Origin: Anaerolineae bacterium
GTDB taxonomy: Bacteria > Chloroflexota > Anaerolineae > JAADDB01
NCBI GenBank assembly: GCA_015486895.1
Contig: WFQT01000412.1
Coordinates: 1 to 44,565, forward strand
DNA length: 44,565 bases
Direction of reading: 5' to 3'
The stretch's first letter is position 1, and the number at the start of each line of letters is the position of its first letter. The position numbers and the translations under genes are program-made. Positions 1,714 to 37,428 of this stretch are shown here, one piece after another. The notes beneath the pieces were generated by a model. That model was not told where the DNA came from and ran no database searches. It worked only from the letters and a program-made list of their open reading frames with translations.

Positions 1714-1717
1714 GACA

Positions 1718-2539: not shown

Positions 2540-2580
2540 AGTCGTTACCTTCCGCATCCGATATTCAATACGTCAAGCGG

Positions 2581-3717: not shown

Positions 3718-3782
3718 TGTTTCCTCGCATCCTTTGTAATCTTTTTTGACGAGCAATCCCGTCGTCATTTTTTCATTCTCTT

Positions 3783-5030: not shown

Positions 5031-5036
5031 GAAGAA

Positions 5037-22480: not shown

Positions 22481-22533
22481 GGAGAATACCCTGCAAGGAT
22501 GTATGGTGAAACCCTGCCAATACGCGCAGCCAT

Positions 22534-23913: not shown

Positions 23914-25355
23914 CAAGGGCGCCCTTCAATCACTCGTGGGAGTAGCATTCTCACCAATTTCGCAATCCGCTCCCCTGCCCGTCCATCTAAAGGCCCGCAC
24001 TCTGTTTCTCGAATACGTCGGCGACCATTTTCATCCATGGCAGGGTCCTCCAAGTACTGGTTGATCAACCTAATGCATTCCTCCGGACTGTGCGCTAGGC
24101 GTACGCCGCCACTTTCTAGAATGGAACGATAGTCTGTCCTCCGGTAAAAGCGGCGAACCGACAGGCCAGCCGGGACCCTTGCAGGCACATCATAATAAAT
24201 GTTGACGATGGGCTTGTCGAAAATGGCCGAGTCCACGGTCATCGTACCGCTTACATTGACCTGTACATCCTGATAGGCTAGAGTCGAGAGATGCATAGGT
24301 TCGTCTTCAAGGATAAGCTTTACGACAACACTCTCGTGTTCGGGACTGTTGTATGCAGCCTGACCAGGAGGTGGATAGACTGCCACCCCAGGATAGATCT
24401 GATGGATCAGCGGATGGCTGGAACCAAAACCGCGCGGATGACCACGCACCAAAAGTTGAGCTCCTCGCGCGAGTTTCCCGTCTCGTACAGCATCGGCCAG
24501 GGACTGAACAATATCAATCTCGTGCCCAATCAACGTCGGGGTAGCGCACGTGTAGACTACGAGCGGCCGCCCTGGATCCAATCCTATGCGTTGGAAGAAC
24601 TCTTTGCGCGGCAATCGATACGCCGGGTTCAGATGATGGTCAAATTGAGGTGACCCAGTAACATGTACTCTCTCAGGAGGAATCTCTGGGTACATGTGCA
24701 ACAAGAATCTTCGGGTTACCTCAGCCCAAACGAAATATGCATCGGCGTCAGGAAGGTGCTGGATCTTGGCGGCCAAGTTGTCTCTAGAACGGATCATTAC
24801 AGCCGTAGGAATGCCAAGGCTATTTGCAGCTTCAATTAGTACCATCTCACGCAAGCCTTCCGGCGAAAAACCAACCACAACCTTTGCTCCCCACTTACGA
24901 AGGAGCTCGCGGTACTGGCCCGCCACCGGATGACGCCGCAATGCTCGAGCGACTTTCTGCCTCAATGGTCGGGCCAAACCTAACCAACCTGCAAACCAAT
25001 GTGCAGCCAGCATCGCTCTAGCCTTTGTCAGACTGGCCACTCGTCGGAATCCGGGTCGAGGATGGCCCCTGTAGCTGCTGGCACGCAGCTTGACCCAAAA
25101 AGTGGTCGGATCGTAATATGACTTGCGGGTATAGTAAGCCTCCATGACCGTTCTGTGGAGTTGTGGATCGTCATGAGGGTCGAAGTCCAGTAATCGCCCT
25201 ATTTGCACACCCTCAGGCTGAGCTTGAAGAGAACCCTCGTACTGGTTCGGATCCACCAGCACAAGAACTTCTTCACCAGCCAGCCGTCGCCCCAATTCGC
25301 CATTGCGCACATTGCGCAAAGAAAGAAAACTATCGCAGCCAATGACGATGCTCAT
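23913..25355 (-). CDS. Second large GT-B-like protein with HP motif, putative surface-carbohydrate transferase
   Basis: About 480 aa. LLVRGHPRGFGSSHP plus the two-lobe layout (..VHVTGSPQFD.., ..VNVSGTMTVDSAIFDKPIVNI..). Confidence 0.3.
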   Translation of the reverse strand: MSIVIGCDSFLSLRNVRNGELGRRLAGEEVLVLVDPNQYEGSLQAQPEGVQIGRLLDFDPHDDPQLHRTVMEAYYTRKSYYDPTTFWVKLRASSYRGHPRPGFRRVASLTKARAMLAAHWFAGWLGLARPLRQKVARALRRHPVAGQYRELLRKWGAKVVVGFSPEGLREMVLIEAANSLGIPTAVMIRSRDNLAAKIQHLPDADAYFVWAEVTRRFLLHMYPEIPPERVHVTGSPQFDHHLNPAYRLPRKEFFQRIGLDPGRPLVVYTCATPTLIGHEIDIVQSLADAVRDGKLARGAQLLVRGHPRGFGSSHPLIHQIYPGVAVYPPPGQAAYNSPEHESVVVKLILEDEPMHLSTLAYQDVQVNVSGTMTVDSAIFDKPIVNIYYDVPARVPAGLSVRRFYRRTDYRSILESGGVRLAHSPEECIRLINQYLEDPAMDENGRRRIRETECGPLDGRAGERIAKLVRMLLPRVIEGRP

Positions 25356-26431
25356 AAAGTCGATCCGAGTCCACTCGTCAGCTCTGCTTCCACTATCTCA
25401 CAAATAGCGTGCCAAGCTAAAAGATGAAGTTCCTGAATGCGTGGCGTAGTTTCGGCGGGGGCGTGAAAACAAACAGACACGTGTTCCTTCATCTCTCCTC
25501 CATCCGCGCCTGTAAAGCCAATGGTCGTCGCTCCAAGCTCTCGACCAGCCTGCAAGCCACGTAGCACATTTGGCGAGCGCCCACTAGTACTGATACCCAC
25601 CACCACATCCCCTGGCCGGGCCAGGGCGCGCACCTGACGGGCAAAAACCTCAGCAAAACCCCAATCGTTACCGACAGCAGTCAGAACGGACGTGTCGGTG
25701 GTTAGAGCAAGGATCGGCCATGGTTCACTCTCCTGCAAAAAGCGGCCAACCAGTTCGCCAGCCACATGCTGAGCGTCGGCCGCACTGCCACCGTTACCAA
25801 ATATCAGAATCTTATGCCCGGTGCGGATGGCTCGGACAAAGGTCTGCGCTACCTGCACAAGTACCGGCAACGACTCATCCAACAGGCGCCTGTGTGAAGC
25901 CAAGCTATCCTCTACGATACGGCGCATATCCTCTTCCAATGCCCCAGCCCGTTCCCCATCTGTCTGTAATCTGCGCAGCAATGCTACTGCTTCTGCCACG
26001 GCTCCAGCGCCGCCGGGGTGAGAAAGAACACGGTGAGCGGCTGCTTTCGCTGCCGATGTCGCATTGGCTGGAGCCAGCCCCAGACCGACTTGTGACAATG
26101 CCGGTGCGTCGCGATCGCTATCGCCGATATAGCAAAATTTGTCAAGGGAAATGCCAATTTGATCGGACAGCGCTGTCAGAGCTAACAGCTTGTCTTTGGC
26201 GTCCCGCACGACGTGCTCAACACCGAAGCGCTTGGCGATCCGGTCAACCATTGTGTTGCTCTCAGCAGTGACGAGCACCACCGTCAGGCCAGATCGACGG
26301 GCCTGTGTAACAGCGTCCAGGTCATGAAAGCTAATCCGCTTTTCTTCTCTTCCAGAACTCTTCAAAAGGGCTATGCCATCTGTCAAGACACCGTCAATAT
26401 CCAGAGCCAACACCCGGATGCCTTTCACCAT
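25352..26431 (-). CDS. Fusion protein: KdsC/YrbI-type HAD sugar-phosphate phosphatase (N) + GmhA-type SIS isomerase (C)
   Basis: N-terminal half: LALDIDGVLTDG...KDK...YIGDSDRDAPAL..APANA. C-terminal half: KILIFGNGGSAADAQHVAGELVGRF...ISTSGRSPNV...TPRIQELHLLAWHAICE. Confidence 0.8.
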   Translation of the reverse strand: MVKGIRVLALDIDGVLTDGIALLKSSGREEKRISFHDLDAVTQARRSGLTVVLVTAESNTMVDRIAKRFGVEHVVRDAKDKLLALTALSDQIGISLDKFCYIGDSDRDAPALSQVGLGLAPANATSAAKAAAHRVLSHPGGAGAVAEAVALLRRLQTDGERAGALEEDMRRIVEDSLASHRRLLDESLPVLVQVAQTFVRAIRTGHKILIFGNGGSAADAQHVAGELVGRFLQESEPWPILALTTDTSVLTAVGNDWGFAEVFARQVRALARPGDVVVGISTSGRSPNVLRGLQAGRELGATTIGFTGADGGEMKEHVSVCFHAPAETTPRIQELHLLAWHAICEIVEAELTSGLGSTL

Positions 26432-27270
26432 GCCGTGCGCCCCCCATCTACTACCAGATTGGCACCGGTCATGTAAGATGAGGCGTCCGAGACCAAGAAG
26501 ACTACAGCCGCTTTATACTCATCAACACGCGCCATCCGTCCCAAAGGAATGAGATTAGTCAAACGCCGCACAAAAGCTTCGTCCTGCCCGGCGTACACGC
26601 CGCCGGGCGATAGTGCATTGACCCGCACCCCCTTATCCGCCCAATAGGTAGCCAGGTAGCGTGTCAGGCCAATCAAGCCGTGCTTGACCACGGAATAGCT
26701 GACTGGCTTGACAGGCTGTTGATCATCAGGCAACCCCGGCTGACGGTAGATGCGCTGGTCAGGAGCGATCACGCCCAGATCAGAGGCAATGTTCAAGATA
26801 ACGCCTTTGCCCCGCCGGGCCATCTCTGTACCAATTACTTGACTGCACAGAAAAGCCCCCGTCAGGCCAACAGCAATATCTTGATTCCATACGTCCAGGG
26901 GAAAATGCTCCAGCCGGGTCCAGGGAACATCACTATGTGCCTCCATCTTGGGATTACGTGCAGCGTTGTTGATCAAAATATCGACTCTCCCAAAAGAACT
27001 AAGAATTTGGTCAAGCATGTCACGAACCGCTGCTGGTTGTGTGATATCCGTGTGGATGCCCGTTGCTCGAACGCCAAAGATCTTTCCGATTTCCGCCGCT
27101 AGCGACCGCGCCTTTTCGCCGTTGATATCAACCAGTACGGGAATTCCACCCATCTCGGCGATGGCCTCAGCGTGACGCACCCCTAACAGGCCAGCCCCGC
27201 CCGTGATCACCGCCACACGACCAGTAAGGTCGAATTGACTACGTACACTTACTGCCCGCTCGCCTCTCAT
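26425..27270 (-). CDS. SDR-family oxidoreductase
   Basis: VITGGAGLLG, NNAA, YSVVKHG (YxxxK). Confidence 0.85.
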   Translation of the reverse strand: MRGERAVSVRSQFDLTGRVAVITGGAGLLGVRHAEAIAEMGGIPVLVDINGEKARSLAAEIGKIFGVRATGIHTDITQPAAVRDMLDQILSSFGRVDILINNAARNPKMEAHSDVPWTRLEHFPLDVWNQDIAVGLTGAFLCSQVIGTEMARRGKGVILNIASDLGVIAPDQRIYRQPGLPDDQQPVKPVSYSVVKHGLIGLTRYLATYWADKGVRVNALSPGGVYAGQDEAFVRRLTNLIPLGRMARVDEYKAAVVFLVSDASSYMTGANLVVDGGRTAW

Positions 27271-28139
27271 AGACCAACTCGACGAAGTTTTTTCATTATC
27301 GGGATTTCACTGGGCCAGACACGTTTTACCCCGTCGCCCATCGCCTTCTCGACAGCCCGGATATCCTTGACTAACCGTCGGAAGCCTTGCGGTTCTACAG
27401 ACGCCGCCTGGTCACTACCCCACATAGCCCTGTCCAGGGTGATGTGCCGCTCAACCATACACGCTCCTAAAGCAACGGCTGCCACCGATGTAGCGAGCCC
27501 AACCTCGTGCCCAGAGTAGCCCACAGGCACACCGTAGCGTTTTCGCAGACTCTGTATCGTGCGAAGATTGAGTTCCTCAGCTTTGGATGGATATGTGCTG
27601 GTGCAGTGCAGTATAACCAGATCGTCTTTGCCCAACACTTCAACAGCATGATCGATCTGCTCGAGTGTGCTCATGCCGGTGGATAAAATAATGGGACGGC
27701 CGTACTTACGATGATGTCGCAGTAAATTATCATCTGTCAGCGACGCCGAGGCTATTTTGTAGCATGGTGGGTCGAACTGTTCGATGAAGTCCACAGATCC
27801 CTCATCCCAGCAGGAAGCATACCACATGATACCCTTTTCGCGACAGTAGCGGTCAATTTCCTCGTACTCTTGCTGTCCAAATTCCAACCCTCGTTTCAGG
27901 TCCCCGTTGGTAGTACCAAAGGGGCTCTCGCGAGGGCGAGCCAGATCCCCAGGAGTATACACTACTTCAACCGTACGCTTTTGGAACTTGACCGCGTTAC
28001 AGCCAGCTTCCGCCGCAGCGTCGATCAATTTCTTGGCAATCTGCAAATCGCCATTGTGGTTGATGCCAATCTCGGCAACGATGAAAGCTGGTTGTCCATC
28101 ACCGACGAGATAATCACCGATCCGCACTACGTTGCTCAT
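27267..28139 (-). CDS. NeuB-family ulosonic acid synthase lacking the C-terminal SAF domain
   Basis: FIVAEIGINHNGDL..A..LIDAAAEAGCNAVKFQKR...KIASASL...ILSTGMS...LHCTSTYP...GYSGHE...ERHITLD. It ends at 290 aa, just after the TIM-barrel part. Confidence 0.8.
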   Translation of the reverse strand: MSNVVRIGDYLVGDGQPAFIVAEIGINHNGDLQIAKKLIDAAAEAGCNAVKFQKRTVEVVYTPGDLARPRESPFGTTNGDLKRGLEFGQQEYEEIDRYCREKGIMWYASCWDEGSVDFIEQFDPPCYKIASASLTDDNLLRHHRKYGRPIILSTGMSTLEQIDHAVEVLGKDDLVILHCTSTYPSKAEELNLRTIQSLRKRYGVPVGYSGHEVGLATSVAAVALGACMVERHITLDRAMWGSDQAASVEPQGFRRLVKDIRAVEKAMGDGVKRVWPSEIPIMKKLRRVGL

Positions 28140-28157
28140 GATCTTTCCTCCTAGATC

Positions 28158-28931
28158 TCAGACTGGATAACGGCCGGGGGTGCGGCTTTCCTCTAACGGC
28201 AAGCCGCTTTCCAGACGTCCTAAGGCCTCTTCAATAGCTGGAATATCCTCAGGGTAATCCAATTCGAAGAGCGGATCATCCACGACAAAAGGAATGGCAC
28301 GATCACCCCACATGGAATTCTTTTCCAGGACGGCACGCGGCCGAACGACGTCTACGTAACCATTCTGCCAATAGACCAACGGTAATTGCTGACGCGGCAA
28401 TGACTGACAATCAGGTATCCCTTCGATACGTAGCAATGGTTCCAAGTAGCCTTCTGACGTAATCCGCCACATCTTGTAAGGCGTTTGCAATGCCAGGCTG
28501 ACCGACCGCACGGCATCAGCTTCGGGATGCATAGCCAATAGCTCAATCGCCCGCTCAATCAACTCCACCCGGCGTACTGGCTGGGTGGGGCGCAAGTGAA
28601 CGACTAAATCGGGCACGTAGCTTTCATGGTCCCGCAGCCAGGTCAGAGCATGGCTGAAAACGTCGATGTCGGGCGATAGGTCCTGGGCGTATTCAGCCGG
28701 GCGCATGAAAGGCACCTCCGCTCCCCACTGCCGGGCCACCTCAGCAATCTCCTCGTCGTCAGTGGAGACAATCACGCGGTCAATGCGCTCCGAAGCCTGA
28801 GCCTGTAAGATGGAATAAGCAATCAGCGGCTTGCCAGCAATGGGTAAGATGTTCTTGCGCAGAATGCCCTTGGACCCGCCGCGAGCGGGGATAAGAGCAA
28901 GGACAGAAAAAAGCTTGAACTTGTTATTCAC
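28158..28931 (-). CDS. Acylneuraminate (CMP-ulosonic acid) cytidylyltransferase family
   Basis: ALIPARGGSKGILRKN..IAGKPLIAYSI...VIVSTDDEEIA...HLRPTQP. Confidence 0.85.
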   Translation of the reverse strand: MNNKFKLFSVLALIPARGGSKGILRKNILPIAGKPLIAYSILQAQASERIDRVIVSTDDEEIAEVARQWGAEVPFMRPAEYAQDLSPDIDVFSHALTWLRDHESYVPDLVVHLRPTQPVRRVELIERAIELLAMHPEADAVRSVSLALQTPYKMWRITSEGYLEPLLRIEGIPDCQSLPRQQLPLVYWQNGYVDVVRPRAVLEKNSMWGDRAIPFVVDDPLFELDYPEDIPAIEEALGRLESGLPLEESRTPGRYPV

Positions 28932-28933
28932 AG

Positions 28934-29786
28934 TTACGTACCTCGAAAACTCGTCACGAACTCCTCAATGCTATAGATCTGCGGAAACTGTTCGAGTGGC
29001 AACTTGCTCCGACTGCAAATGCAATGCTTGTAACTTATCTGATGCACCATAAAGCCGTACTCTTTCAACAGTAACTCCGCCAATTCCGAGAGAGAACTGT
29101 CAACCTGCCCGAGTTTCCTTCCGTGAACTTCCAGAAGTAAGACCAGTCGTGGATTCTTGGGTACCAGCCTTTCCATGCCTTTCAGAACCTCGACCTCGTA
29201 TCCTTCGCAGTCCACCTTAATTGCATCAACCCGATCTAGCTCATCATCCAGACGGATCACAGGCACTTCTGCTGTCCCCCCCCCCGATCTTCCTGCCAGG
29301 TTGGGCAATGCTTCCGGTCAGCATTCCGCGCGGTATTATTGCCTTTCCAGGAACCGAACCGACGACTGCACATTTAGCCACGACATTTGTGAGATGATTA
29401 GCCTGTACACTCTTCTCCAAAAGGTCAAAATAATGCGGAACGGCCTCATAAGCAAATACTCTTCCTTCATTCCCTACCAGCGACGCCATTTCTATCGTGT
29501 AGTCACCCACATGGGCGCCTACATCACAGCAAAACCACCCCGGTTCAAGAAGAGGAAGAAAAACTCGGCGCACTGGCATTTCCGTTCCCTCACGTAACCG
29601 CTTCCGCATTCCAGGGCCATCCGCAAGGCGCATCCAGAGCTTGTAGGGACCAGTTATCTCATTGTAGGAAACCGTATACTCTCTGGGGCGATTATAAAAA
29701 GCGCGATAATACCACTCTTTAGCCTTCCGCATCCTATAACCACCGAAAAGCCTCTGGCGAAAACCTCTCACATAATGCCTCAACAT
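28934..29786 (-). pseudogene. FkbM-family methyltransferase split by a frameshift in a G10 (C10 on plus strand) tract
   Basis: ORF 29244-29786 has CDVGAHVGDYTIEMA...VFAYEAVP. ORF 28934-29308 has VIRLDDEL..VDAIKVDCEGYEVEVLKG. Both read through 29276-29285 in different frames. G9 or G12 would join them into about 283 aa. Confidence 0.8.
29276..29285. repeat. Homopolymeric C10/G10 tract
   Basis: Read directly: gctgt cccccccccc gatc. Confidence 0.95.
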
Positions 29787-29837
29787 GTCTCCACTCTCCT
29801 ATGTTCACTCCTACGTTCAGACGAGAGCCCACCTTAG

Positions 29838-30893
29838 TTACTCGCCTGCTATCTCCACAGCATGCCCCGACCGGAGCGAAGCCTCGGCCGCCAGCGAGAT
29901 TTTCAGGCTGCGAACTCCTTCGCGCAGATCCACCAGTGGTTGTTCCTCGCCGCGCAAGCAAGCCAGAAAATGCTCAAGTTCGTCCATGAACATCCGATTA
30001 CGGTCGAACCCTTCGAATCGCTGGATTTGCACGATGCGTGTAGCCCGTTCGTAGAATGCGGTCTGGTTGGCGTAATAGTCGTAGCGCACTTTGCCCGCAT
30101 CGCCAATGACCTCGCATACCCGCTGGGGCGGCCGTTGCAGGTAATCCAGGTGAACATGCACTGGCAAGGGGCGACCATCGTATTCACACTGCAAGAGTAC
30201 GCTCACCGAGTCCTCCACATCAACTTCCAATTCGCTCAGGTGTCCACCCACCGCAAACACTCGCCTGGGCATCCCAAACAGCCACAGGACGTAATCAATC
30301 TCGTGCGTCTGGATGTGCAAGCACCCACCTCCCAAATCCCGCCGGGCAGGGTGGGTTTTTCGGTAATCTTCGTAGGGATGCCAATCGGGCAAATACTCAC
30401 CATTCACGATGTGGGCGGCAACCAGTCGCCCCAGACGTCCCTCGTCAATCAGCGATTTGACCCATCGTAAACCCGGATGAAAGCGGAACTGGTAGGCCAC
30501 AAACGCCACCAGTCCCTTGTGTTCCACGAGTTCGACCAGTTCATCAACGCCCTCCAACGAATGAGAAAGGGGCTTCTCGATGAAGAGATGACAACCCGCT
30601 CGTGCCGCAGCCAGGGCGACCGGCAGGTGCAGGGCGTTGGGATTGGTCACAAAGACAGCATCGGGCTGTTCTGACAGCGCGTCCTCCAGATTGCTAAAGG
30701 AACGGATGTTGTATGTCGTTTCCAGGTCGGTCCCCGGTCTCACTGTCATATCCGGGTTGAGCACCGGGCTCTGGCCCCGGCTGCGATAGGCCAGGATTTC
30801 CACATTGTCACCCAACAGCGCCCGCAGGTTGCGTACGTGGCGCTGGCCGATGGAACCAAGGCCAGCAAAGAGCACCTTGAGATGATACTTCAT
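29838..30893 (-). CDS. Gfo/Idh/MocA-family oxidoreductase
   Basis: N-terminal Rossmann FAGLGSIGQRH, and the EKP motif (CHLFIEKPL). Confidence 0.8.
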   Translation of the reverse strand: MKYHLKVLFAGLGSIGQRHVRNLRALLGDNVEILAYRSRGQSPVLNPDMTVRPGTDLETTYNIRSFSNLEDALSEQPDAVFVTNPNALHLPVALAAARAGCHLFIEKPLSHSLEGVDELVELVEHKGLVAFVAYQFRFHPGLRWVKSLIDEGRLGRLVAAHIVNGEYLPDWHPYEDYRKTHPARRDLGGGCLHIQTHEIDYVLWLFGMPRRVFAVGGHLSELEVDVEDSVSVLLQCEYDGRPLPVHVHLDYLQRPPQRVCEVIGDAGKVRYDYYANQTAFYERATRIVQIQRFEGFDRNRMFMDELEHFLACLRGEEQPLVDLREGVRSLKISLAAEASLRSGHAVEIAGE

Positions 30894-31639
30894 AAATTTT
30901 CTCCGCTTTTGGGAAGCCCAGGGGCTCCTGCGCCGTTCTTTCGCCTATCCAAAAGCCAAGCTGCCAGCTCCAGATCAAAGTAAGTATCTATGTCTATCGA
31001 GTCAGCAGGATCCATCATGTACGGCACCACTTGCGAACCGTAGAAAGTCTCTTGCTCCACAATCACGTCTGCCCGAGTGACCAACACGGCCGGGCCATTG
31101 CGTGCATACAGAACAGGAACTTCCTGCCGCCTATAGCGGTCGAAAGGCACAGACACCTGCCAGAAATCTTCAAGACATCCATCCACAAGACGCATGACGG
31201 AGTACGGACTGTAACGATGCGGCACTTGCACAACACTGACTACGGTCTCAGCACCACTCCGCAGCAACAGGTCTACAGCCTCATCAATATGCTGCGCCCG
31301 GCGTAACGGCGAGGTGGGTTGTAGTAAGACCAGTACGTCCGCCTGCCACCCCTCGTGCTCAATTAGCCAGCGGATGGCATGTTGGGCTACAGCCAGGCTG
31401 GGTGTGTCGTCACGCGCCAGTTCACTCGGTCGCACGAATGGTACTTCCACGCCACAGTCACGCCCCACTTCAGCGATGACCTCGTCGTCCGTGGAGAGGA
31501 TAACGCGAGTCAAATACTGGCTTTGCAAAGCCGCCTCGCATGTATAAGCCAGGAGCGGCCGTCCAGCCAACCTAGCGATATTTTTGTGCGGGATACTTTT
31601 CGATCCCCCTCGCGCAGGGATCAAGCCGAGAATTTTCAT
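30890..31639 (-). CDS. neuA: Acylneuraminate cytidylyltransferase (second copy)
   Basis: MKILGLIPARGGSKSIPHKN...GRPLLAYT...ILSTDDEVIA...LLQPTSPLR. The start is set at ATG 31637-31639 (TGATG overlap with neuC). An alternative GTG lies at 31669. Confidence 0.8.
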   Translation of the reverse strand: MKILGLIPARGGSKSIPHKNIARLAGRPLLAYTCEAALQSQYLTRVILSTDDEVIAEVGRDCGVEVPFVRPSELARDDTPSLAVAQHAIRWLIEHEGWQADVLVLLQPTSPLRRAQHIDEAVDLLLRSGAETVVSVVQVPHRYSPYSVMRLVDGCLEDFWQVSVPFDRYRRQEVPVLYARNGPAVLVTRADVIVEQETFYGSQVVPYMMDPADSIDIDTYFDLELAAWLLDRRKNGAGAPGLPKSGENL

Positions 31640-32808
31640 CAATACGTCATCCGTTTCTGCACTTCCCACGAACAGGTAGATAAAATGTCGGCGATGCGCT
31701 CGCCAGCATGACCATCTCCATAGATATGCTCAGAGGGATAACGTCCGTGATCTAATTGCCGTTGGATGGCCTCGATAATCTGTTCGCGATCGTAATCCAC
31801 GTCGATGACGTTGCTGCCCCGCTCCCGTCCCATCTGGCGTGTACCGATGTTTACAGCAGGTAGGCCCAGGAATGCTCCCTCACGAATGGCGGAACTGGAA
31901 TTGCCTACCATGCAAGCACTGCGCATCATCAAGCGAATGAAAGTTTCAACAGGAAAGTTTTTGTAGAATCGAATATAGTCGTGACGATAGTGCTCACGGA
32001 ACTTACGCATCCCTCTGGCGATATCTTCGGCACCAGCATCTACATTAGGCCAAAGCATGACGGTCGGCACCTGCAATTCATGGAGAGCCATCAAGGTTTC
32101 GGTGATCTGATGCTCCCCTTGACCATATTCGGTGGTAACGGGGTATTGAGCCACAAGCAAAAATGGTTCATCCAAATTGATATGACCTCCGACACCCTCA
32201 TACTCCAACCAGGCTCGTTCCGGCAGCCGGCCATCATTGCTAACGACCTCCGCTATCAAATCAATACGAGGGCAACCTACCACGTGTACCGTAGCCGGAT
32301 CTTCGCCCATGCGGATAATTCGCTCGGCGGCAGACCGGTTGGCAGGAAAATGAATATGAGCCAGTTTGGTTACCGCATGACGCACACTCTCGTCAATAGT
32401 CCCGGTAACCTCCCCACCCATTGTGTGCGCCAAAGGGATATTCATGTAAACAGCCGCAATGGCAGTGGCCATTGTCTCAAAGCGGTCTCCCACAGTTAGC
32501 ACTACATCCGGCTTGAGTCTATCGAAAATTGTGGGTAACTCCAAAAGCCCCAGGCCTGTTGATTTGGCCATCGTCGCAGGTGTCTCGCCCTCGATGATCA
32601 TATGCACTCTGGCATCTGGCTTGAAGCCATCAGCCTCGATGACTTCTACAACCGAGCCAAACCGGTCCAGCAATGCAGAAGCCCCAACAACCAACTGTAG
32701 CTCCAGATCAGGGTGAGCCTGAATGGCGCGCATAGCGCTCTTGATGCTTCCATAATTTGCCCGACTGCCGACTACAACACATACTTTGCGCACAAACCCC
32801 TCCGTCAC
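31639..32808 (-). CDS. neuC: UDP-N-acetylglucosamine 2-epimerase (hydrolysing), NeuC type
   Basis: VVVGSRANYG...GDRFE..A.A.AA....PLAHTMGGEVTGTIDESVRHA.TKLAH.HF.. Confidence 0.85.
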   Translation of the reverse strand: MTEGFVRKVCVVVGSRANYGSIKSAMRAIQAHPDLELQLVVGASALLDRFGSVVEVIEADGFKPDARVHMIIEGETPATMAKSTGLGLLELPTIFDRLKPDVVLTVGDRFETMATAIAAVYMNIPLAHTMGGEVTGTIDESVRHAVTKLAHIHFPANRSAAERIIRMGEDPATVHVVGCPRIDLIAEVVSNDGRLPERAWLEYEGVGGHINLDEPFLLVAQYPVTTEYGQGEHQITETLMALHELQVPTVMLWPNVDAGAEDIARGMRKFREHYRHDYIRFYKNFPVETFIRLMMRSACMVGNSSSAIREGAFLGLPAVNIGTRQMGRERGSNVIDVDYDREQIIEAIQRQLDHGRYPSEHIYGDGHAGERIADILSTCSWEVQKRMTY

Positions 32809-32838
32809 ATTTGCACAGATTGGGTAGACGTACCCGCT

Positions 32839-33858
32839 TCACATATCAAAGAGATCTTCTTCCCGGATAAGACTATCCTTTGGTATCCTTCGTTTGGTGC
32901 GCTTGCCTAACACATCTTTGATTCGGCTGGCGGGTATCCCCGTTCCTGGTTTTTTGATTCCTATCATGTCGGCGGTAACCACAGCGCCTTGAGGAATTTC
33001 CACCAACGAGACGACACTCTTCTCAAAAATCTTCTTCATCTCCTTCAACCTAAGGGCATTGGCATCCTTATCCACACGTGAGGACAACATCGTCTCGATA
33101 GCACGGATCCCTTGAACAAGTTCTTCGAATTCTTTCGGTTCCAATGAGTGGCGTGCATCACTACCGTACATCAAACGACTGAACGTCAGGTGCTTCTCGA
33201 TAACAGACGCACCCAAAACGACCGCCGCCAGCGAGGCATAAGGCGTCAGCGTATGGTCAGAAAGCCCCACAGGCAGTTTGTACCGTCCTCGCATCTCCAG
33301 CATCACGTTTAACCCTGCTTCCTCATACGGGCAAGGGTACTCTGATGTACATTGCAGCACCGTCAGTCGGTCGTGGTAACGCAGTATGGTGTTGACAGCC
33401 TCGTCCAGTTCGGCCCATGAGCTCATGCCTGATGAGAGCAACACTGGTTTACCTGTCTGGGCAATCACCTCCAAAAGGGGCAGGTTACTCACTTCACCTG
33501 ATGGTATCTTGTAGCGGCCTACACCCACATCCTCTAACAGTTCGACAGCTTCAATCGAGAAGGGCGACGAGAGGAATTCAACACCATGGGCCTCACAATG
33601 CGCTTTCAGAGTCTTCCATTGATCTCGATTAAAAGCCGTACGCTCGAAATAATCATAACGCGGCTCACCTTTGAAATAAGGTGGCATGGGAGCATCACGC
33701 AACGTTTCCGCGGCAGCGATATGGGTTTGGAATTTGACAGCGTCTACGCCACAGCTTGCAGCCACTTCGATTAGCTTTTTGGCATTACCAAAGCTGCCGT
33801 CATGGACGGAGCCAACCTCGGCAACGACAGAAACTTGATTCAAGTTCTCGTCATTCAT
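32839..33858 (-). CDS. neuB: N-acetylneuraminate-type synthase with SAF domain
   Basis: VVAEVGSVHDGS...GVDAVKFQTH...KIPSGEV...LLSSGMS...LQCTSEYP...GLSDHT...EKHLT, plus a C-terminal SAF-like IPQGAVVTADMIGIKKPGTGIP. Confidence 0.85.
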   Translation of the reverse strand: MNDENLNQVSVVAEVGSVHDGSFGNAKKLIEVAASCGVDAVKFQTHIAAAETLRDAPMPPYFKGEPRYDYFERTAFNRDQWKTLKAHCEAHGVEFLSSPFSIEAVELLEDVGVGRYKIPSGEVSNLPLLEVIAQTGKPVLLSSGMSSWAELDEAVNTILRYHDRLTVLQCTSEYPCPYEEAGLNVMLEMRGRYKLPVGLSDHTLTPYASLAAVVLGASVIEKHLTFSRLMYGSDARHSLEPKEFEELVQGIRAIETMLSSRVDKDANALRLKEMKKIFEKSVVSLVEIPQGAVVTADMIGIKKPGTGIPASRIKDVLGKRTKRRIPKDSLIREEDLFDM

Positions 33859-34922
33859 AGGCCACCTTCGATCTGCTCAATCAACTGCATCGTCTTGACA
33901 GCATCATTGAGATCAGAGGCTGGATACGGCAGTGTTTCCCCCAAAGCCAGTGCCTTGACAAAGGTCTGGTCCTGAACATAGAGTCCAGGCTTATATTGTC
34001 GATCAATCGGATCCACAGGTATAGAAAACCTCCTCTTTCCCCGGTAAATTTCACCGCTTGTATTGCCAGCGAGCGAGATTTCAACGCGAACGCCATCCCC
34101 GTATAACTTGATACTCCAGCTACCACCTGCGTGCCAGTGCGCGACAAAAGTACCCAGGCAGCCACTGCTCAAGCGCATGATCGCTGTAAAACTATCGCCA
34201 TTGCGTTCCTCCCAAGAATTCTTGAAGCCGCAGAATCCGTCGACTTCACCTCCTATACAGCGGAAGAGGTCAATACAATGGATGCTGTTTCCAACAAACC
34301 ACAGATCATAGAGTCGCGGATCAAAGCGTCCCTCCGTCCGAATCCGGCGAATCGCCTCCGGTGCTTCTATAACAATTCCGATCAACGGACCTTCTTGTAA
34401 AATGGCAGACAACCCTTGATGGAGTACAGACAAAAAGCGCCGGTTGACACCAACCATATTGAGGCAATGATTCTCGTTAGCCAAGGTGGCCAAACGAGCG
34501 GTCTTGTCTGAGGTAAAACCAGCAGGTTTCTCAATCAAACAGGGAATGCGCCGTGTCAAGCATTCGGCGGCAACCGACACAGTCTCAAAATGGCTGACCG
34601 CCACAATAACGCCATCTGGTCGTGTAACGTCCAACATAATGCGGTAATCATCAAATGTCTGAGCGACGCGATACTGCTGCGCCAACGCGGTAATATCGGA
34701 GTTACCGCGATTACATATGCCAACCAGATCGACGTTTGCCATCGCCGATAGCACTTCCAAATGTCGCCGTGCATGTCTGCCAGCGCCAGCAACAGCAATG
34801 CGTACCTGAGGCAATCGTTCACTAAGCGAGCGGTATTGAGCGAGAATGGCTTCCGTATGATCTCGTACATTCAAGAAGCGACGCACAAACCGTCGGCCCT
34901 GACCAAGATACTTTCTAATCAC
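33855..34922 (-). CDS. Gfo/Idh/MocA-family oxidoreductase
   Basis: IAVAGAGRHARRH...CLIEKP. GTGA overlap with the upstream gene. Confidence 0.75.
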   Translation of the reverse strand: MIRKYLGQGRRFVRRFLNVRDHTEAILAQYRSLSERLPQVRIAVAGAGRHARRHLEVLSAMANVDLVGICNRGNSDITALAQQYRVAQTFDDYRIMLDVTRPDGVIVAVSHFETVSVAAECLTRRIPCLIEKPAGFTSDKTARLATLANENHCLNMVGVNRRFLSVLHQGLSAILQEGPLIGIVIEAPEAIRRIRTEGRFDPRLYDLWFVGNSIHCIDLFRCIGGEVDGFCGFKNSWEERNGDSFTAIMRLSSGCLGTFVAHWHAGGSWSIKLYGDGVRVEISLAGNTSGEIYRGKRRFSIPVDPIDRQYKPGLYVQDQTFVKALALGETLPYPASDLNDAVKTMQLIEQIEGGL

Positions 34923-36076
34923 GGGAAAGGCAACTCCAGTTCGGCATCTGCGCCCTGTAGCGGTAGGGAAACTTGCTCATGTTGACGTTCATCGGATAGA
35001 TGTATCGCCATCACCGCTTCCAACGCCGCCACACCTTCTTCCGCACCACAAGAGGGCACTCGGTCTGATAACATTTCAGTTGCAACTTTTGCAAACAAAC
35101 CTGCAGGCTTCATCTCATCTGAGAAGCGAAAAGTCTGACGGCTGAACACCGCATTGATCAAGTGCCACTCTCCTTGTCTCTCATCTACCTCGATACGGCC
35201 AGCAGTACCTCGCAAGACCAAGAACTTGCCTCTTCGGTTCAAGTCATCAGACACATCCAAATAACCACGTACACCATTTTCCAGGCCAATCAAGGCGTAA
35301 CCGCCAGGATCTTGAAATTGGGGGCCACGCTTGTTAGGCCTGTGTACTTTGTCCAGAAATCCGATAACCCATGCAATCCTGCTATCCGCCAGATAAGCGA
35401 TCAAATCCAGGAAATGAACCCCCACCATCGCCAGACCACCTGGCCCAGGTACCACGTACACCTGACGCAGCGTTCCTACATAACCGTGCTCAACACAACG
35501 CCTGATGGCAGCATAGTCATTAGACCAACGCCGACTATGATTGACAGCGATTTTGACTCCTCTCTCGCGGCACAAGTCAGCTAACTGACGTGCCGCGAGC
35601 ACCTGGTTGCCGATCGGCTTTTCCACAATCAACCGCTTCACACCTGCTTCGATAGCGAGATTGGCAATCTCTACGTGAGACGTCGTGTTGGTGGCTACGC
35701 AGATTAAATCTACTTCTTCAGCATGCAATAACTCGCGAGTATCTCTGTAGAATCTTGTTTTCGGCAAATCCACCTGTTGACGCAGTCTTATTATAGCGTC
35801 CGGGTTACGATCCGCCACAGCTACAATCTCGGCTTGGCGTATTCTCTGAAGTCCCAAACACTGATCACGTCCCATTGCGCCGGCGCCTATCACTGCGACA
35901 CGATACTGAGAACCTGAATCTTTCAATGAAATCACATCGGATGCTGCCTGCGACCGAACAATAGTTGCCAGTTTCCGCTTGTGCCTGATCTGTCTAGCGT
36001 GGAAAATCAACGTCCTGATTCTTTGCTTCACCTGACATCCTCGCCTTTGTTTTCGAACAAGTTGCCAACTGCACAT
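34919..36076 (-). CDS. Gfo/Idh/MocA-family oxidoreductase
   Basis: VAVIGAGAMGRDQ...RLIVEKP. The N-terminal roughly 55 aa are basic and low-complexity, so the true start is uncertain. Confidence 0.7.
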   Translation of the reverse strand: MCSWQLVRKQRRGCQVKQRIRTLIFHARQIRHKRKLATIVRSQAASDVISLKDSGSQYRVAVIGAGAMGRDQCLGLQRIRQAEIVAVADRNPDAIIRLRQQVDLPKTRFYRDTRELLHAEEVDLICVATNTTSHVEIANLAIEAGVKRLIVEKPIGNQVLAARQLADLCRERGVKIAVNHSRRWSNDYAAIRRCVEHGYVGTLRQVYVVPGPGGLAMVGVHFLDLIAYLADSRIAWVIGFLDKVHRPNKRGPQFQDPGGYALIGLENGVRGYLDVSDDLNRRGKFLVLRGTAGRIEVDERQGEWHLINAVFSRQTFRFSDEMKPAGLFAKVATEMLSDRVPSCGAEEGVAALEAVMAIHLSDERQHEQVSLPLQGADAELELPFP

Positions 36077-37382: not shown

Positions 37383-37428
37383 ATTCAGATTCTCACGTTG
37401 ATATTTTCTCGGTCAATATTTGCCGATT

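What the first reader, a model, noticed from the sequence alone, without database searches (positions are those of the whole stretch)
25352..36076. Two parallel CMP-ulosonic-acid branches in one operon, with no Pse/Leg-type amino-sugar enzymes
Seen in sequence: two NeuB-family synthases (27267-28139 without SAF domain, 32839-33858 with SAF) and two NeuA-family cytidylyltransferases. There is one hydrolysing NeuC, a HAD-SIS fusion, an SDR, three Gfo/Idh/MocA oxidoreductases and an FkbM methyltransferase. Established knowledge: NeuC+NeuB+NeuA suffice for CMP-Neu5Ac. Pseudaminic and legionaminic routes need a PseB/PglF dehydratase, a DegT aminotransferase and an acetyltransferase. None of these is intact here; the only trace is a CapD remnant at 4340-5030. 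KDN- and Kdo-type routes use an aldose phosphate plus PEP, followed by a YrbI/KdsC-family phosphatase. Inference: branch A (neuC-neuB-neuA plus flanking oxidoreductases) makes a Neu5Ac-derived sugar. Branch B (SIS/HAD fusion, SDR, SAF-less synthase, second cytidylyltransferase, methyltransferase) makes a different ulosonic acid through phosphorylated intermediates.
Basis: partly seen in the sequence, partly recalled or inferred. Interest (0 to 1): 0.72.

Follow-up and report, generated by a model that had tools for sequence, protein, structure and literature searches.

The report
Two sialic-acid-like sugar pathways, one unusual
One operon of a cell-surface polysaccharide locus carries two separate gene sets for making activated sialic-acid-like sugars: one looks ordinary, while the other is a widespread but unstudied cassette that builds its sugar from a phosphorylated precursor and may be the first genetic route to a ten-carbon relative of sialic acid.

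Summary
All the genes lie on the minus strand at the stated coordinates, tightly packed. The FkbM methyltransferase, however, is broken by a frameshift inside a G10 run.

Module A (NeuB+SAF, hydrolysing NeuC, cytidylyltransferase) looks like a free-sugar, Neu5Ac-type route.

Module B is Gfo/Idh/MocA, cytidylyltransferase, SAF-less NeuB', SDR, and a KdsC-like HAD fused to a GmhA-like SIS domain. It is a conserved cassette in uncultured Acidobacteriota, Chloroflexota and Nitrospirota.

- In 80 metagenomic loci, a KdsC-like phosphatase lies within 1.5 kb of NeuB' in 73% of those with enough flank.
- SIS, HAD and cytidylyltransferase domains are fused pairwise in different loci.
- NeuB' shares diagnostic motifs with the characterised, SAF-less Prymnesium Kdn-9-P synthase.
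- Every linked HAD has the Glu that marks the Bacteroides KDN-9-P phosphatase.

Module B therefore runs aldose-phosphate + PEP, then ulosonate-phosphate, then ulosonate, then CMP-ulosonate.

The aldose phosphate is unresolved. GmhA linkage favours heptose-7-P, giving a C10 ulosonic acid (about 0.5). The enzyme signatures equally fit Man-6-P, giving KDN (about 0.33).

The same two-module block recurs in at least five other loci. I rate it a new variant of a known kind, with interest about 0.68.

The parts
34919..36076 (-). Gfo/Idh/MocA oxidoreductase 1 (385 aa, roughly 58-aa N-terminal extension). Role unknown; not conserved in the syntenic loci.
   Evidence: Pfam PF01408/PF22725. Absent upstream of NeuB+SAF in L003, L165, L167 and L168.
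33855..34922 (-). Gfo/Idh/MocA oxidoreductase 2 (355 aa). Role unknown; specific to this window.
   Evidence: Pfam PF01408/PF22725.
32839..33858 (-). Module A synthase: NeuB TIM barrel plus SAF domain (339 aa). It groups with N. meningitidis NeuB. Its clade has Lys at the Arg314 position.
   Evidence: Pfam NeuB 260 bits plus SAF. TIGR03569 scores 358 bits, below the 399.65 cutoff. Best PDB match is 1XUZ/4IPJ. NJ tree. KKPG motif in 120 of 120 homologs.
31639..32808 (-). Module A hydrolysing UDP-GlcNAc 2-epimerase (NeuC type).
   Evidence: TIGR03568 scores 404 bits, above the 235.9 cutoff; wecB scores only 80 bits.
30890..31669 (-). Module A CMP-ulosonate synthetase (CTP_transf_3).
   Evidence: Pfam PF02348. 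42% identical to the module-B paralog.
29838..30893 (-). Module B Gfo/Idh/MocA oxidoreductase (351 aa). Conserved first gene of the cassette.
   Evidence: Pfam. 72-73% identical orthologs lie directly upstream of the cytidylyltransferase in L001 and L003, and orthologs are present in L090, L099, L164-L168.
28934..29786 (-). FkbM-type methyltransferase, interrupted by a frameshift in a G10 tract (29276-29285). Nine Gs would give a 283-aa ORF. It occupies a variable 'tailoring slot'.
   Evidence: Pfam PF05050 on both halves. Sequence and translations. It is the only homopolymer of 8 or more bases in the window. The same slot holds Methyltransf_23 (L003), a sulfotransferase (L167) or Acetyltransf_6 (L168).
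28158..28931 (-). Module B CMP-ulosonate synthetase (CTP_transf_3).
   Evidence: Pfam. Orthologs are fused to a KdsC-like HAD in 7 loci and to a GmhA-like SIS in L091.
27267..28139 (-). Module B synthase NeuB': NeuB barrel only (290 aa), of the Kdn-9-P-synthase-like (sugar-phosphate) type.
   Evidence: Pfam NeuB 283 bits, no SAF. About 80% identical homologs occur across phyla. 36% identity / 164 bits to the P. parvum Kdn-9-P synthetase, with shared KFQKR, W, Ser-for-E134 and SGH motifs. NJ tree.
26425..27270 (-). Module B classical SDR (281 aa). Conserved partner; the step it catalyses is unknown.
   Evidence: NCBIfam SDR hits, all below cutoffs. Present next to NeuB' in A1, A2 and A3 loci.
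25352..26431 (-). Module B bifunctional protein. Residues 1-156 are a KdsC/YrbI-type HAD phosphatase carrying the KDN-9-P-phosphatase marker Glu. Residues 166-352 are a GmhA-type sedoheptulose-7-P isomerase domain.
   Evidence: Pfam and NCBIfam. PDB alignments to KdsC, BT1713 and B. pseudomallei GmhA. Motifs DxD and GDxxxD are visible in the sequence. Marker residues. At least 120 fusion homologs.
23913..25355 (-). Candidate ulosonic-acid transferase 1 (480 aa).
   Evidence: Weak match to the NCBIfam BFO_1060 glycosyltransferase family, which is the T. forsythia putative Pse/Leg transferase family. 71% identical ortholog after HAD/SIS in L003.
22534..23916 (-). Candidate ulosonic-acid transferase 2 (460 aa, TagB/TagF-like).
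   Evidence: Pfam Glyphos_transf. TIGR04396 surface carbohydrate biosynthesis protein, 61 bits. Orthologs follow HAD/SIS in L001 and L003.
39802..42457 (-). Context: a separate ADP-heptose module. It comprises HldA kinase (39802-40827), GmhB (40794-41363) and a GmhA-HldC fusion (41363-42457).
   Evidence: Pfam. NCBIfam: rfaE_dom_I 392 bits (above cutoff), gmhA 197 bits, rfaE_dom_II 172 bits, GmhB 160 bits.

Best explanation
The operon encodes two independent routes to CMP-activated 3-deoxy-2-ulosonic acids. Both products are probably added to a Wzy-dependent surface polysaccharide by the two GT-B-like proteins immediately downstream.

Module A is the free-sugar route. NeuC hydrolyses and epimerises UDP-GlcNAc to ManNAc. 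The SAF-containing NeuB condenses ManNAc with PEP, and the first cytidylyltransferase makes the CMP-sugar, probably CMP-Neu5Ac. This is inferred.

Module B follows the logic of the Kdo pathway, but with different enzyme families.
1. The GmhA-type SIS domain isomerises a ketose phosphate to a manno-configured aldose phosphate.
2. The SAF-less NeuB' condenses that aldose phosphate with PEP to give an ulosonate phosphate.
3. The KdsC-type HAD domain removes the phosphate.
4. The second cytidylyltransferase activates the product with CMP.
5. The conserved Gfo/Idh/MocA and SDR pair tailor the sugar or its precursor by oxidation and reduction. Which step they act on is unknown.
6. A variable accessory enzyme decorates the sugar. 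Here it is an FkbM methyltransferase that is switched off by a G10 frameshift.

My committed reading of steps 1-2 is that the substrate is sedoheptulose-7-P, converted to D-glycero-D-manno-heptose-7-P. The product would then be a ten-carbon homologue of KDN, a 3-deoxy-dec-2-ulosonic acid.

What is shown is the order SIS, NeuB', HAD, CTP as one pathway, and the use of a phosphorylated substrate. What is inferred is the identity of the aldose phosphate, the roles of Gfo and SDR, and the transferases.
For: One pathway:
- A KdsC-like HAD lies within 1.5 kb of NeuB' in 22 of 30 loci. Within 5 kb the counts are HAD 12/15, SIS 7/15, CTP 7/15, GFO 6/15 and SDR 8/15.
- Fusions occur as HAD-SIS (window, L099, L001-3, and at least 120 database homologs), CTP-HAD (7 loci) and CTP-SIS (L091).

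Phosphorylated substrate:
- NeuB' is 36% identical over its full length to the characterised P. parvum Kdn-9-P synthetase. That enzyme needs Man-6-P, does not accept Man, and also lacks SAF.
- Only these two groups share KFQKR, Trp for F112, Ser for catalytic E134, SGH, and a basic C-terminal tail.
- All 35 linked HADs have Glu at the BT1713 Glu56 position, whereas Kdo-8-P phosphatases have Arg.
- The HAD catalytic motifs are intact.

Heptose-7-P specifically:
- The SIS domain aligns to B. pseudomallei GmhA at E = 6e-50 over about 170 residues with a single one-residue gap. All four Zn/catalytic residues and the STSGxSPN phosphate loop are present.
- It keeps 56 of 65 positions conserved in 90 canonical GmhAs.
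- Stand-alone GmhA genes with fully canonical residues sit directly beside NeuB' in 7 other loci, one of them fused to the cytidylyltransferase.
- No PMI/ManC was seen among the immediate neighbours sampled.
- Mass-spectrometry hints of ulosonic acids longer than C9 exist, with no known pathway (PMC8157484; SugarBase preprint).

Module A:
- NeuC scores above its equivalog cutoff, and the synthase groups with N. meningitidis NeuB.
- No aminotransferase is present in the window or in 4 of 5 syntenic loci.
Against: - No enzyme of the NeuB' clade has been assayed.
- The nearest characterised synthase and phosphatase both act on the C9 sugar KDN-9-P. The Glu56/Lys67-type marker argues for a KDN-like rather than a longer substrate.
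- The HAD-fused SIS clade has five consistent replacements at positions invariant in canonical GmhA: R78S, L81W, Y100W, V167A and S169A. These could mean a changed substrate, for example fructose-6-P to Man-6-P.
- The window already has a second, canonical GmhA fused to HldC. A redundant copy is a hint of divergence.
- About half of the NeuB' loci have no SIS gene nearby.
- NeuC accompanies a lone NeuB' in L001 and L138, which no version of this model explains.
- The module A synthase is below the NCBIfam cutoff and has Lys for Arg314, so Neu5Ac is not certain.
Confidence: 0.5

Rival explanations
1. Module B makes KDN (C9). NeuB' is a Kdn-9-P synthase using Man-6-P, the HAD domain is a KDN-9-P phosphatase, and the second cytidylyltransferase is a CMP-KDN synthetase. 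The GmhA-like domain has shifted to fructose-6-P to Man-6-P isomerisation, or is accessory.
For: - The closest characterised relatives are the P. parvum Kdn-9-P synthetase, with shared diagnostic motifs.
- The HAD carries the Glu/Lys markers of the B. thetaiotaomicron KDN-9-P phosphatase in 35 of 35 cases.
- The fused SIS clade carries five clade-specific substitutions at otherwise invariant GmhA positions.
- About half of the NeuB' loci need no dedicated isomerase.
- KDN is found frequently in environmental microbes (PMC8157484).
Against: - Stand-alone GmhA genes next to NeuB' are canonical at those five positions.
- No indels or catalytic changes were seen that would shorten the GmhA pocket.
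- Man-6-P is a housekeeping metabolite, so a dedicated, fused isomerase conserved in at least 120 homologs is hard to justify.
- Identity to the Kdn-9-P synthase is only 36%.
Confidence: 0.33
2. Module B is an animal-like Neu5Ac-9-P route that shares NeuC with module A. In this reading ManNAc is phosphorylated to ManNAc-6-P, NeuB' makes Neu5Ac-9-P, the HAD domain dephosphorylates it, and CMP-Neu5Ac is formed. The two modules would then be redundant, or would make the same backbone with different decoration.
For: - NeuC is the only epimerase next to a lone NeuB' cassette in L001 and L138.
- A comparable idea was proposed for a divergent Leptospira synthase (PMC3438082).
- The best PDB hit of NeuB' is the SAF-less Leptospira protein 6NCS.
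Against: - No ManNAc kinase is present in the window or in the syntenic loci.
- NeuC is within 5 kb of NeuB' in only 1 of 15 loci.
- This reading gives no role to the GmhA-type domain.
- 6NCS lacks the KFQKR, W, Ser and SGH motifs.
Confidence: 0.07
3. Module B is a relic or variant of a legionaminic-acid (ptm-type) pathway. The Gfo and SDR proteins would correspond to PtmF and PtmA and would build an amino-sugar phosphate precursor. The remaining Leg enzymes would be encoded elsewhere.
For: - The order Gfo, cytidylyltransferase, SDR resembles ptmF-legF-ptmA in Plesiomonas, Vibrio and Campylobacter (PMC4481668, Table 5).
- The second-best NCBIfam hit of the SDR is PRK09186, which I recall as the PtmA family.
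- JGI labels many relatives of the module A synthase as diacetyllegionaminate synthase.
Against: - There is no PtmE, LegB, LegC or LegH in the window.
- The KdsC-type phosphatase and the Kdn-9-P-synthase-like motifs have no place in the Leg route.
- Homology of Gfo and SDR to PtmF and PtmA was not tested directly.
Confidence: 0.05

Closest known systems
KDN pathway of Bacteroides thetaiotaomicron (BT1713/BT1714) and Prymnesium parvum (Kdn-9-P synthetase, CMP-Kdn synthetase)
   Same: Both use PEP plus an aldose phosphate to make an ulosonate phosphate, then a KdsC-family phosphatase, then CMP activation. The synthase is SAF-less with KFQKR, W, Ser and SGH motifs (P. parvum). The phosphatase carries the Glu56/Lys67-type markers (BT1713).
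   Different: Identity to the P. parvum synthase is only 36%. A GmhA-type isomerase is fused to the phosphatase or sits adjacent. A conserved Gfo/Idh/MocA plus SDR pair is part of the cassette. The substrate may be heptose-7-P rather than Man-6-P.
Kdo pathway (KdsD, KdsA, KdsC, KdsB)
   Same: The four-step logic is identical: a SIS-domain ketose-P to aldose-P isomerase, PEP condensation, a KdsC-type phosphatase, and a CMP-transferase of the CTP_transf_3 family.
   Different: The isomerase is GmhA-type (SIS_2), not KdsD. The synthase is NeuB-type, not KdsA/DAHP-synthase-type. The phosphatase has Glu where Kdo-8-P phosphatases have Arg.
Canonical bacterial CMP-Neu5Ac pathway (NeuC, NeuB, NeuA; N. 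meningitidis / E. coli K1)
   Same: Module A has all three enzyme types. NeuC is above its equivalog cutoff. The synthase has a SAF domain and the E25/E134/E234 equivalents.
   Different: The synthase is below the TIGR03569 cutoff. It has Lys for Arg314, invariantly within its clade. It is only 36% identical to NmNeuB across the aligned barrel region.
Leptospira interrogans NulO locus (several synthases and CMP-synthetases in one cluster; SAF-less synthase, PDB 6NCS)
   Same: One locus holds more than one NulO synthase and more than one cytidylyltransferase. A SAF-less NeuB homolog is present, and a phospho-route has been proposed (PMC3438082).
   Different: The Leptospira locus also encodes aminotransferases for di-N-acetylated NulOs. 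6NCS is only about 35% identical to NeuB' and lacks its signature motifs.
Vertebrate Neu5Ac-9-P route (NANS, NANP, CMAS with a C-terminal KdsC-like domain)
   Same: It uses a phosphorylated aldose substrate. The CTP_transf_3 plus KdsC-like domain architecture recurs in the A3-type loci.
   Different: NANS keeps a SAF/AFP domain. No ManNAc kinase is present here.

Membership tests
NeuB / sialic acid synthase family (PF03102) | NeuB TIM-barrel domain | tested here: met
   Both synthases match: 260 and 283 bits.
NeuB / sialic acid synthase family (PF03102) | C-terminal SAF/antifreeze-like domain with Arg314 | tested here: not met
   NeuB' has no SAF domain. The module A synthase has SAF, but with Lys at the Arg314 position in 120 of 120 clade members.
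NeuB / sialic acid synthase family (PF03102) | Catalytic Glu25, Glu134, Glu234 and the metal-binding His pair | tested here: inconclusive
   The module A synthase keeps all of them. NeuB' keeps E25, E234 and both His, but has Ser at E134, as does the active P. parvum Kdn-9-P synthetase.
N-acetylneuraminate synthase equivalog (TIGR03569) | Score above the curated cutoff of 399.65 bits | tested here: not met
   358 bits for the module A synthase and 278 bits for NeuB'.
Kdn-9-P synthase (sugar-phosphate-dependent, SAF-less type; P. parvum) | SAF-less architecture plus shared motifs (KFQKR, Trp for F112, Ser for E134, SGH, basic C-terminal tail) | tested here: met
   Alignment A3, Pfam, BLAST 36% / 164 bits.
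Kdn-9-P synthase (sugar-phosphate-dependent, SAF-less type; P. parvum) | Activity with Man-6-P + PEP and none with Man | not testable with these tools
   This needs an enzyme assay.
KdsC/YrbI C0-type HAD phosphatases | HAD motifs I-IV and homology to KdsC | tested here: met
   DIDGV and GDSDRD are present. PDB matches to KdsC score 97 bits. TIGR01670 scores 85.5 bits, below its cutoff of 106.95.
KDN-9-P phosphatase (BT1713 type) | Glu at position 56 and a basic residue at position 67 (Kdo-8-P phosphatases have Arg at 56). That these are the specificity markers is my recollection of Lu et al. 2009. | tested here: met
   35 of 35 NeuB'-linked HADs have Glu; 3 of 3 KdsC have Arg. NF058599 scores 85.9 bits, below its cutoff of 180.
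GmhA sedoheptulose-7-P isomerase | Zn/catalytic His, Glu, Gln, His and the Ser/Thr phosphate loop | tested here: met
   All are present.
GmhA sedoheptulose-7-P isomerase | Equivalog cutoffs, and all positions that are invariant in canonical GmhA | tested here: inconclusive
   TIGR00441 scores 173.8, below the 209.45 cutoff. However, the window's bona fide GmhA-HldC also fails it at 197. Five invariant positions are replaced in the fused clade.
Legionaminic / pseudaminic acid pathways | 4,6-dehydratase, DegT aminotransferase and N-acetyltransferase acting on an NDP-HexNAc | tested here: not met
   None is intact in the 44.5-kb window. Only a truncated CapD is present at 4340-5083.
Hydrolysing UDP-GlcNAc 2-epimerase (NeuC, TIGR03568) | Score above the curated cutoff of 235.9 bits | tested here: met
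   404 bits.

The most novel reading that the evidence does not exclude
Module B is the first genetically defined route to a ten-carbon ulosonic acid. A GmhA-type isomerase converts sedoheptulose-7-P to D-glycero-D-manno-heptose-7-P. A SAF-less NeuB-type synthase condenses this with PEP to a 3-deoxy-dec-2-ulosonate 10-phosphate, which is then dephosphorylated and CMP-activated.

This would extend the series DAHP (C7), Kdo (C8), KDN/Neu (C9) to C10. It would also explain the unassigned 'higher-carbon ulosonic acid' mass-spectrometry signals reported from microbes.
Probability: 0.45. Interest if true: 0.88.

Novelty: new variant of a known kind. Interest (0 to 1): 0.68.

Why it matters
Sialic-acid-like sugars shape how microbial surfaces are recognised, and they give extracellular polymers their charge. 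Almost all of the known biochemistry comes from pathogens.

This cassette is abundant in uncultured soil, sediment and sludge bacteria. It is annotated everywhere as 'N-acetylneuraminate synthase' and 'SIS domain protein', and no member has been studied.

If it makes KDN, it defines the main bacterial KDN route and supplies sequence markers for sugar-phosphate-dependent synthases: KFQKR, Trp, Ser-for-Glu134, SGH, and no SAF domain. Those markers would correct thousands of annotations.

If it makes a C10 acid, it adds a new class of monosaccharide and gives a testable genetic explanation for the unassigned higher-carbon ulosonic acids seen by mass spectrometry. It would also provide enzymes for making such sugars.

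Tried and rejected
- The genome-contig scan with the HAD-SIS protein returned only ordinary GmhA genes, matching residues about 165-351. It found no fusion orthologs. These genes were reused later as a canonical GmhA reference set.
- Literature searches for deculosonic, decanulosonic or ten-carbon sugars found nothing relevant.
- My first recollection that PtmF is a SIS protein was wrong. PMC4481668 lists it as a 326-aa oxidoreductase, so the SIS domain has no Leg-pathway counterpart. Schoenhofen 2009 could not be retrieved.
- The bradyrhizose literature gave no link to NeuB-type genes.
- The P. parvum CMP-Kdn synthetase does not discriminate between the two cytidylyltransferases: 88.6 against 63.2 bits, both remote.
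- NCBIfam cutoffs for GmhA do not discriminate either. The locus's genuine GmhA also falls below them.
- A suspected GmhA-NeuB' fusion in L138 turned out to be two adjacent ORFs in different frames.
- Promoter and terminator scans are at the chance level.
- Structure prediction was not run. The tool returns no coordinates, so it could not distinguish C6-P from C7-P substrates.

Full report

Yes. ORF listing and Pfam/NCBIfam scans show an unbroken run of minus-strand genes:

| Coordinates | Assignment |
|---|---|
| 34919-36076 | Gfo/Idh/MocA |
| 33855-34922 | Gfo/Idh/MocA |
| 32839-33858 | NeuB+SAF |
| 31639-32808 | NeuC (TIGR03568, 404 bits, above cutoff) |
| 30890-31669 | CTP_transf_3 |
| 29838-30893 | Gfo/Idh/MocA |
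| 28934-29786 | FkbM methyltransferase |
| 28158-28931 | CTP_transf_3 |
| 27267-28139 | NeuB domain only |
| 26425-27270 | SDR |
| 25352-26431 | HAD+SIS |

Neighbouring genes overlap by a few bases or are at most 51 nt apart. Promoter-like and terminator-like sites are no more frequent than in shuffled sequence. A single operon is therefore the simplest reading.

The rest of the window is a Wzy-dependent polysaccharide locus. It contains an initiating transferase, glycosyltransferases, Wzy_C, AsnB-like amidotransferases and a sulfotransferase. It also contains a complete ADP-heptose module: HldA, GmhB and a GmhA-HldC fusion at 39802-42457, followed by a GT9 at 42447-43724.

No DegT aminotransferase, intact 4,6-dehydratase of the PseB/PglF type or hexapeptide acetyltransferase was found. 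ORF 4340-5083 is a CapD fragment covering profile positions 113-291 only.

One correction applies. The methyltransferase is split into two ORFs by a frameshift inside a run of ten G at 29276-29285 (window coordinates). This is the only homopolymer of eight or more bases in 44.5 kb. Nine Gs would restore a 283-residue protein.

**2. The two synthases are different kinds of enzyme.**

They share 36% identity, and the two cytidylyltransferases share 42%.

Against solved structures, the SAF-containing protein is closest to N. meningitidis NeuB (about 176 bits). The SAF-less protein, NeuB', is closest to a 290-residue SAF-less Leptospira protein, 6NCS (158 bits), and farthest from N. meningitidis NeuB.

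A neighbour-joining tree of the barrel domain puts NeuB' orthologs in a tight clade of their own. The SAF-containing protein groups with N. meningitidis NeuB.

**3. Module B is a conserved, widespread cassette.**

NeuB' has about 80% identical homologs in MAGs labelled Acidobacteriota, Chloroflexota and Verrucomicrobiota. The HAD-SIS fusion has at least 120 homolog clusters at 64-82% identity, in Acidobacteriota, Nitrospirota and Chloroflexota. All are annotated only as 'SIS domain-containing protein' or 'D-sedoheptulose 7-phosphate isomerase'.

A metagenome scan returned 80 loci with NeuB' orthologs of 62-83% identity. I mapped the window's proteins onto them.

- A KdsC-like HAD lies within 1.5 kb of NeuB' in 22 of 30 loci with enough flank.
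- Within 5 kb the counts are HAD 12/15, GmhA-like SIS 7/15, CTP_transf_3 7/15, Gfo/Idh/MocA 6/15 and SDR 8/15.
- NeuC appears in only 1/15, and a second (SAF-type) NeuB in 0/15.

Domain fusions link the components pairwise. HAD-SIS occurs in the window, L099 and L001-3. CTP_transf_3-HAD occurs in seven loci. CTP_transf_3-SIS occurs in L091. These were detected by BLAST and confirmed by Pfam.

The isomerase, synthase, phosphatase and cytidylyltransferase therefore belong to one pathway. Its logic is that of the Kdo pathway (KdsD, KdsA, KdsC, KdsB). The difference is that a GmhA-type isomerase and a NeuB-type synthase fill the first two roles.

**4. The substrate is phosphorylated.**

The supplement of PMC6200933 gives the coding sequence of the Prymnesium parvum Kdn-9-P synthetase. 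That enzyme was shown to use Man-6-P plus PEP and not to convert Man.

Once translated, it is 312 residues long and has a NeuB domain only. It is 36% identical to NeuB' over the whole length (164 bits), against 26.5% (87 bits) to the SAF-containing synthase.

In the alignment, NeuB' orthologs and this enzyme share several features. All of the other references lack them: N. meningitidis NeuB, C. jejuni PseI, B. subtilis SpsE, Leptospira 6NCS and the module A synthase. The shared features are:

- KFQKR after the substrate-binding Gln;
- Trp in place of Phe112;
- Ser in place of catalytic Glu134;
- SGH instead of SDH at the metal-binding His;
- AAS(L/V)EP;
- a short basic C-terminal tail where the others have either a SAF domain or nothing.

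The HAD half of the fusion has intact catalytic motifs. It is about equally similar to KdsC and to the B. thetaiotaomicron KDN-9-P phosphatase BT1713.

At the BT1713 Glu56 position, all 35 NeuB'-linked HAD domains have Glu, and nearly all have Lys or Arg at the Lys67 position. Three Kdo-8-P phosphatases have Arg at position 56. That these residues are specificity markers is my recollection of Lu et al. 2009 and was not checked here.

**5. Which aldose phosphate?**

This is the open point.

For heptose-7-P:
- The SIS domain aligns with B. pseudomallei GmhA at E = 6e-50 over about 170 residues with a single one-residue gap. It keeps the four Zn/catalytic residues and the STSGxSPN phosphate loop.
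- The fused clade retains 56 of 65 positions that are at least 90% conserved in 90 canonical GmhA sequences.
- Stand-alone GmhA genes lie directly next to NeuB' in L114, L133, L138, L091, L144, L110 and L124. All of them keep the catalytic His/Glu/Gln/His residues and Arg78, and most are canonical at the other clade-specific positions as well (L110 and L124 differ at a few). The L091 copy is fused to the cytidylyltransferase.
- No mannose-6-P isomerase turned up among the sampled immediate neighbours.

For Man-6-P (KDN):
- Both characterised relatives act on KDN-9-P.
- The fused SIS clade has five consistent replacements at otherwise invariant positions: R78S, L81W, Y100W, V167A and S169A.
- The window already has a canonical GmhA fused to HldC.
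- About half of the NeuB' loci have no SIS gene nearby.

NCBIfam cutoffs do not help, because the locus's bona fide GmhA also falls below them.

I put about 0.85 on the phospho-route as such. Within the whole, I put about 0.5 on heptose-7-P (a C10 homologue of KDN), 0.33 on KDN, and the rest on other options.

Mass-spectrometric hints of ulosonic acids longer than C9 have been published without a pathway (PMC8157484; SugarBase preprint). The Magnetospirillum compound described there is a diamino sugar, however, and may be unrelated.

**6. The redox pair and the accessory slot.**

Gfo/Idh/MocA 29838-30893 and the SDR are conserved members of module B. The Gfo gene sits directly upstream of the module-B cytidylyltransferase in loci that have no module A (L001, L090, L099, L166). 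It should therefore not be counted with module A.

The step these two enzymes catalyse is unknown. With no aminotransferase present, the obvious options are epimerisation by oxidation and reduction, or formation of a keto or carboxyl group.

The order Gfo, cytidylyltransferase, SDR recalls ptmF-legF-ptmA of legionaminic-acid loci (PMC4481668). I could not test that homology.

Between the Gfo gene and the cytidylyltransferase lies a slot whose content varies between loci: FkbM methyltransferase here, Methyltransf_23 in L003, a sulfotransferase in L167, Acetyltransf_6 in L168, and nothing in L001. Here the slot gene is out of frame because of the G10 tract. This is either an assembly error or an OFF state of a phase-variable gene.

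**7. Module A.**

NeuC is clearly of the hydrolysing type. The synthase keeps the Glu25, Glu134 and Glu234 equivalents and has a SAF domain.

No aminotransferase lies in the window or within 10 kb in L003, L164, L165 or L167. L168 has one 3.3 kb upstream. Neu5Ac is the simplest product.

Three cautions apply. The synthase scores below the NCBIfam NeuB cutoff (358 against 399.65 bits). Its clade has Lys at the position of SAF-domain Arg314 in 120 of 120 homologs. JGI's automatic names for the clade are split between Neu5Ac synthase and diacetyllegionaminate synthase.

The two Gfo/Idh/MocA genes upstream (33855-36076) are not present in the syntenic loci, and their role is unknown.

**8. The pairing of the two modules is itself conserved.**

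The conserved block is: NeuB+SAF, NeuC, CTP, Gfo, [variable modifier], CTP, NeuB', SDR, HAD/SIS, a ~480-aa protein, a ~470-aa protein.

It recurs in L003, L165, L167 (Acidobacteriota MAG GCA_016199695.1) and L168, and in rearranged form in L164.

Module B also occurs alone and in two other architectures.
- A2: NeuB', HAD, a ~600-aa TPP enzyme, a xylose-isomerase-like barrel, Gfo, SDR, FkbM and GT2, with no cytidylyltransferase.
- A3: Gfo, SDR, a CTP-HAD fusion, a radical-SAM/SPASM protein, NeuB' and a KpsS/KpsC-like protein.

**9. The likely transferases.**

The two proteins downstream of HAD-SIS have only weak matches. For 23913-25355 it is the NCBIfam BFO_1060 glycosyltransferase family. For 22534-23916 it is Glyphos_transf/TIGR04396.

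BFO_1060 is the Tannerella forsythia ortholog of the proposed pseudaminic/legionaminic acid transferases, which have a TagB/GT-B domain (PMC5420450). L001, which has one module, has only the second protein. L003, L165 and L168, like the window, have two ~470-500-aa proteins after HAD/SIS, and in L003 they match these two. The correlation is suggestive but thin.

**10. Comparison with what is known, and verdict.**

The closest known systems are the KDN pathway of B. thetaiotaomicron and P. parvum, and, in logic, the Kdo pathway. Leptospira and Campylobacter provide precedents for several NulO routes in one locus.

Three features are not described anywhere I could find:
- the GmhA-type isomerase as a pathway member, fused to the phosphatase or to the cytidylyltransferase;
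- the obligatory Gfo/SDR pair;
- the conserved coupling to a second, NeuC-dependent module.

I class the finding as a new variant of a known kind. If the sugar proves to be ten-carbon, it would be categorically new chemistry. Interest is 0.68.

Noticed in passing
window 29276-29285 (inside 28934-29786, minus strand): A run of ten G (C10 on the plus strand) frameshifts the FkbM methyltransferase, and nine Gs would restore a 283-aa ORF. It is the only homopolymer of 8 or more bases in the window. It could be a phase-variable OFF state, as in Campylobacter glycan loci, or an assembly error.
   Followed up: partly
between the Gfo gene and the module-B cytidylyltransferase: window 28934-29786; L003 8604-9170; L167 14214-15137; L168 14497-15423: The same intergenic position holds a different tailoring enzyme in each locus: FkbM methyltransferase, Methyltransf_23, a sulfotransferase or Acetyltransf_6. 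It is empty in L001. This looks like a diversification hot spot for the module-B sugar.
   Followed up: partly
L097, L102, L124, L093, L119, L094, L117, L132, L134 (e.g. L124 10001-16000): A second architecture of NeuB' loci runs NeuB', KdsC-like HAD, a ~600-aa TPP enzyme, a xylose-isomerase-like TIM barrel, Gfo/Idh/MocA, SDR, FkbM and GT2. It is often preceded by RfbF-like, dehydratase and ~450-aa DegT (E1-like) genes, and it has no cytidylyltransferase. The ulosonate may be decarboxylated or used as a TPP donor for a higher-carbon or branched sugar there.
   Followed up: partly
L146, L149, L151, L153, L156, L157, L159, L161: A third architecture runs Gfo, SDR, a CTP_transf_3-HAD fusion (~410 aa, like vertebrate CMAS), a radical-SAM/SPASM protein, NeuB' and a ~530-aa KpsS/KpsC-like (Capsule_synth) protein. 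No SIS gene lies nearby.
   Followed up: partly
window 32839-33858 and 120 homologs (P0241-P0360): The SAF-containing synthase clade has Lys (motif KKPG) where N. meningitidis NeuB has Arg314. Arg314 is described as the one conserved catalytic residue of the SAF domain. The replacement is invariant in 120 of 120 homologs.
   Followed up: partly
window 39802-43724: This is a complete ADP-heptose module in the same operon direction. It has HldA kinase, GmhB and an unusual GmhA-HldC fusion, followed by a GT9 heptosyltransferase-like gene. The locus thus has two GmhA domains, each fused to an enzyme of a different downstream pathway.
   Followed up: partly
window 43721-44293; L167 14214-15137 and 19026-20000; L168 8078-9022; L149 10965-11810; L109 6983-7957: Sulfotransferase genes recur next to the ulosonic-acid cassette. 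This echoes reports that sialylation and sulfation co-occur in sludge EPS (PMC10483923).
   Followed up: no
window 37001-39000 (ORF 37429-39093, 554 aa): G+C drops to 42-45%, against about 52% elsewhere. The ORF has only a weak Asn_synthase/PP-loop match and no NCBIfam hit. It may be a recent insertion.
   Followed up: no
window 910-2557 and 2957-3768: An AbiEii/AbiEi type IV toxin-antitoxin pair lies at the end of the polysaccharide locus. Next to it is a small two-gene pair: a DUF5678 protein and a retropepsin-like aspartyl protease.
   Followed up: no
L001 6856-8004 and L138: A NeuC-type epimerase accompanies a module-B cassette that has no SAF-type synthase nearby. None of the pathway models explains this.
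   Followed up: no
window 20762-22657: A 631-aa ORF downstream of the two candidate transferases has no Pfam or NCBIfam match.
   Followed up: no
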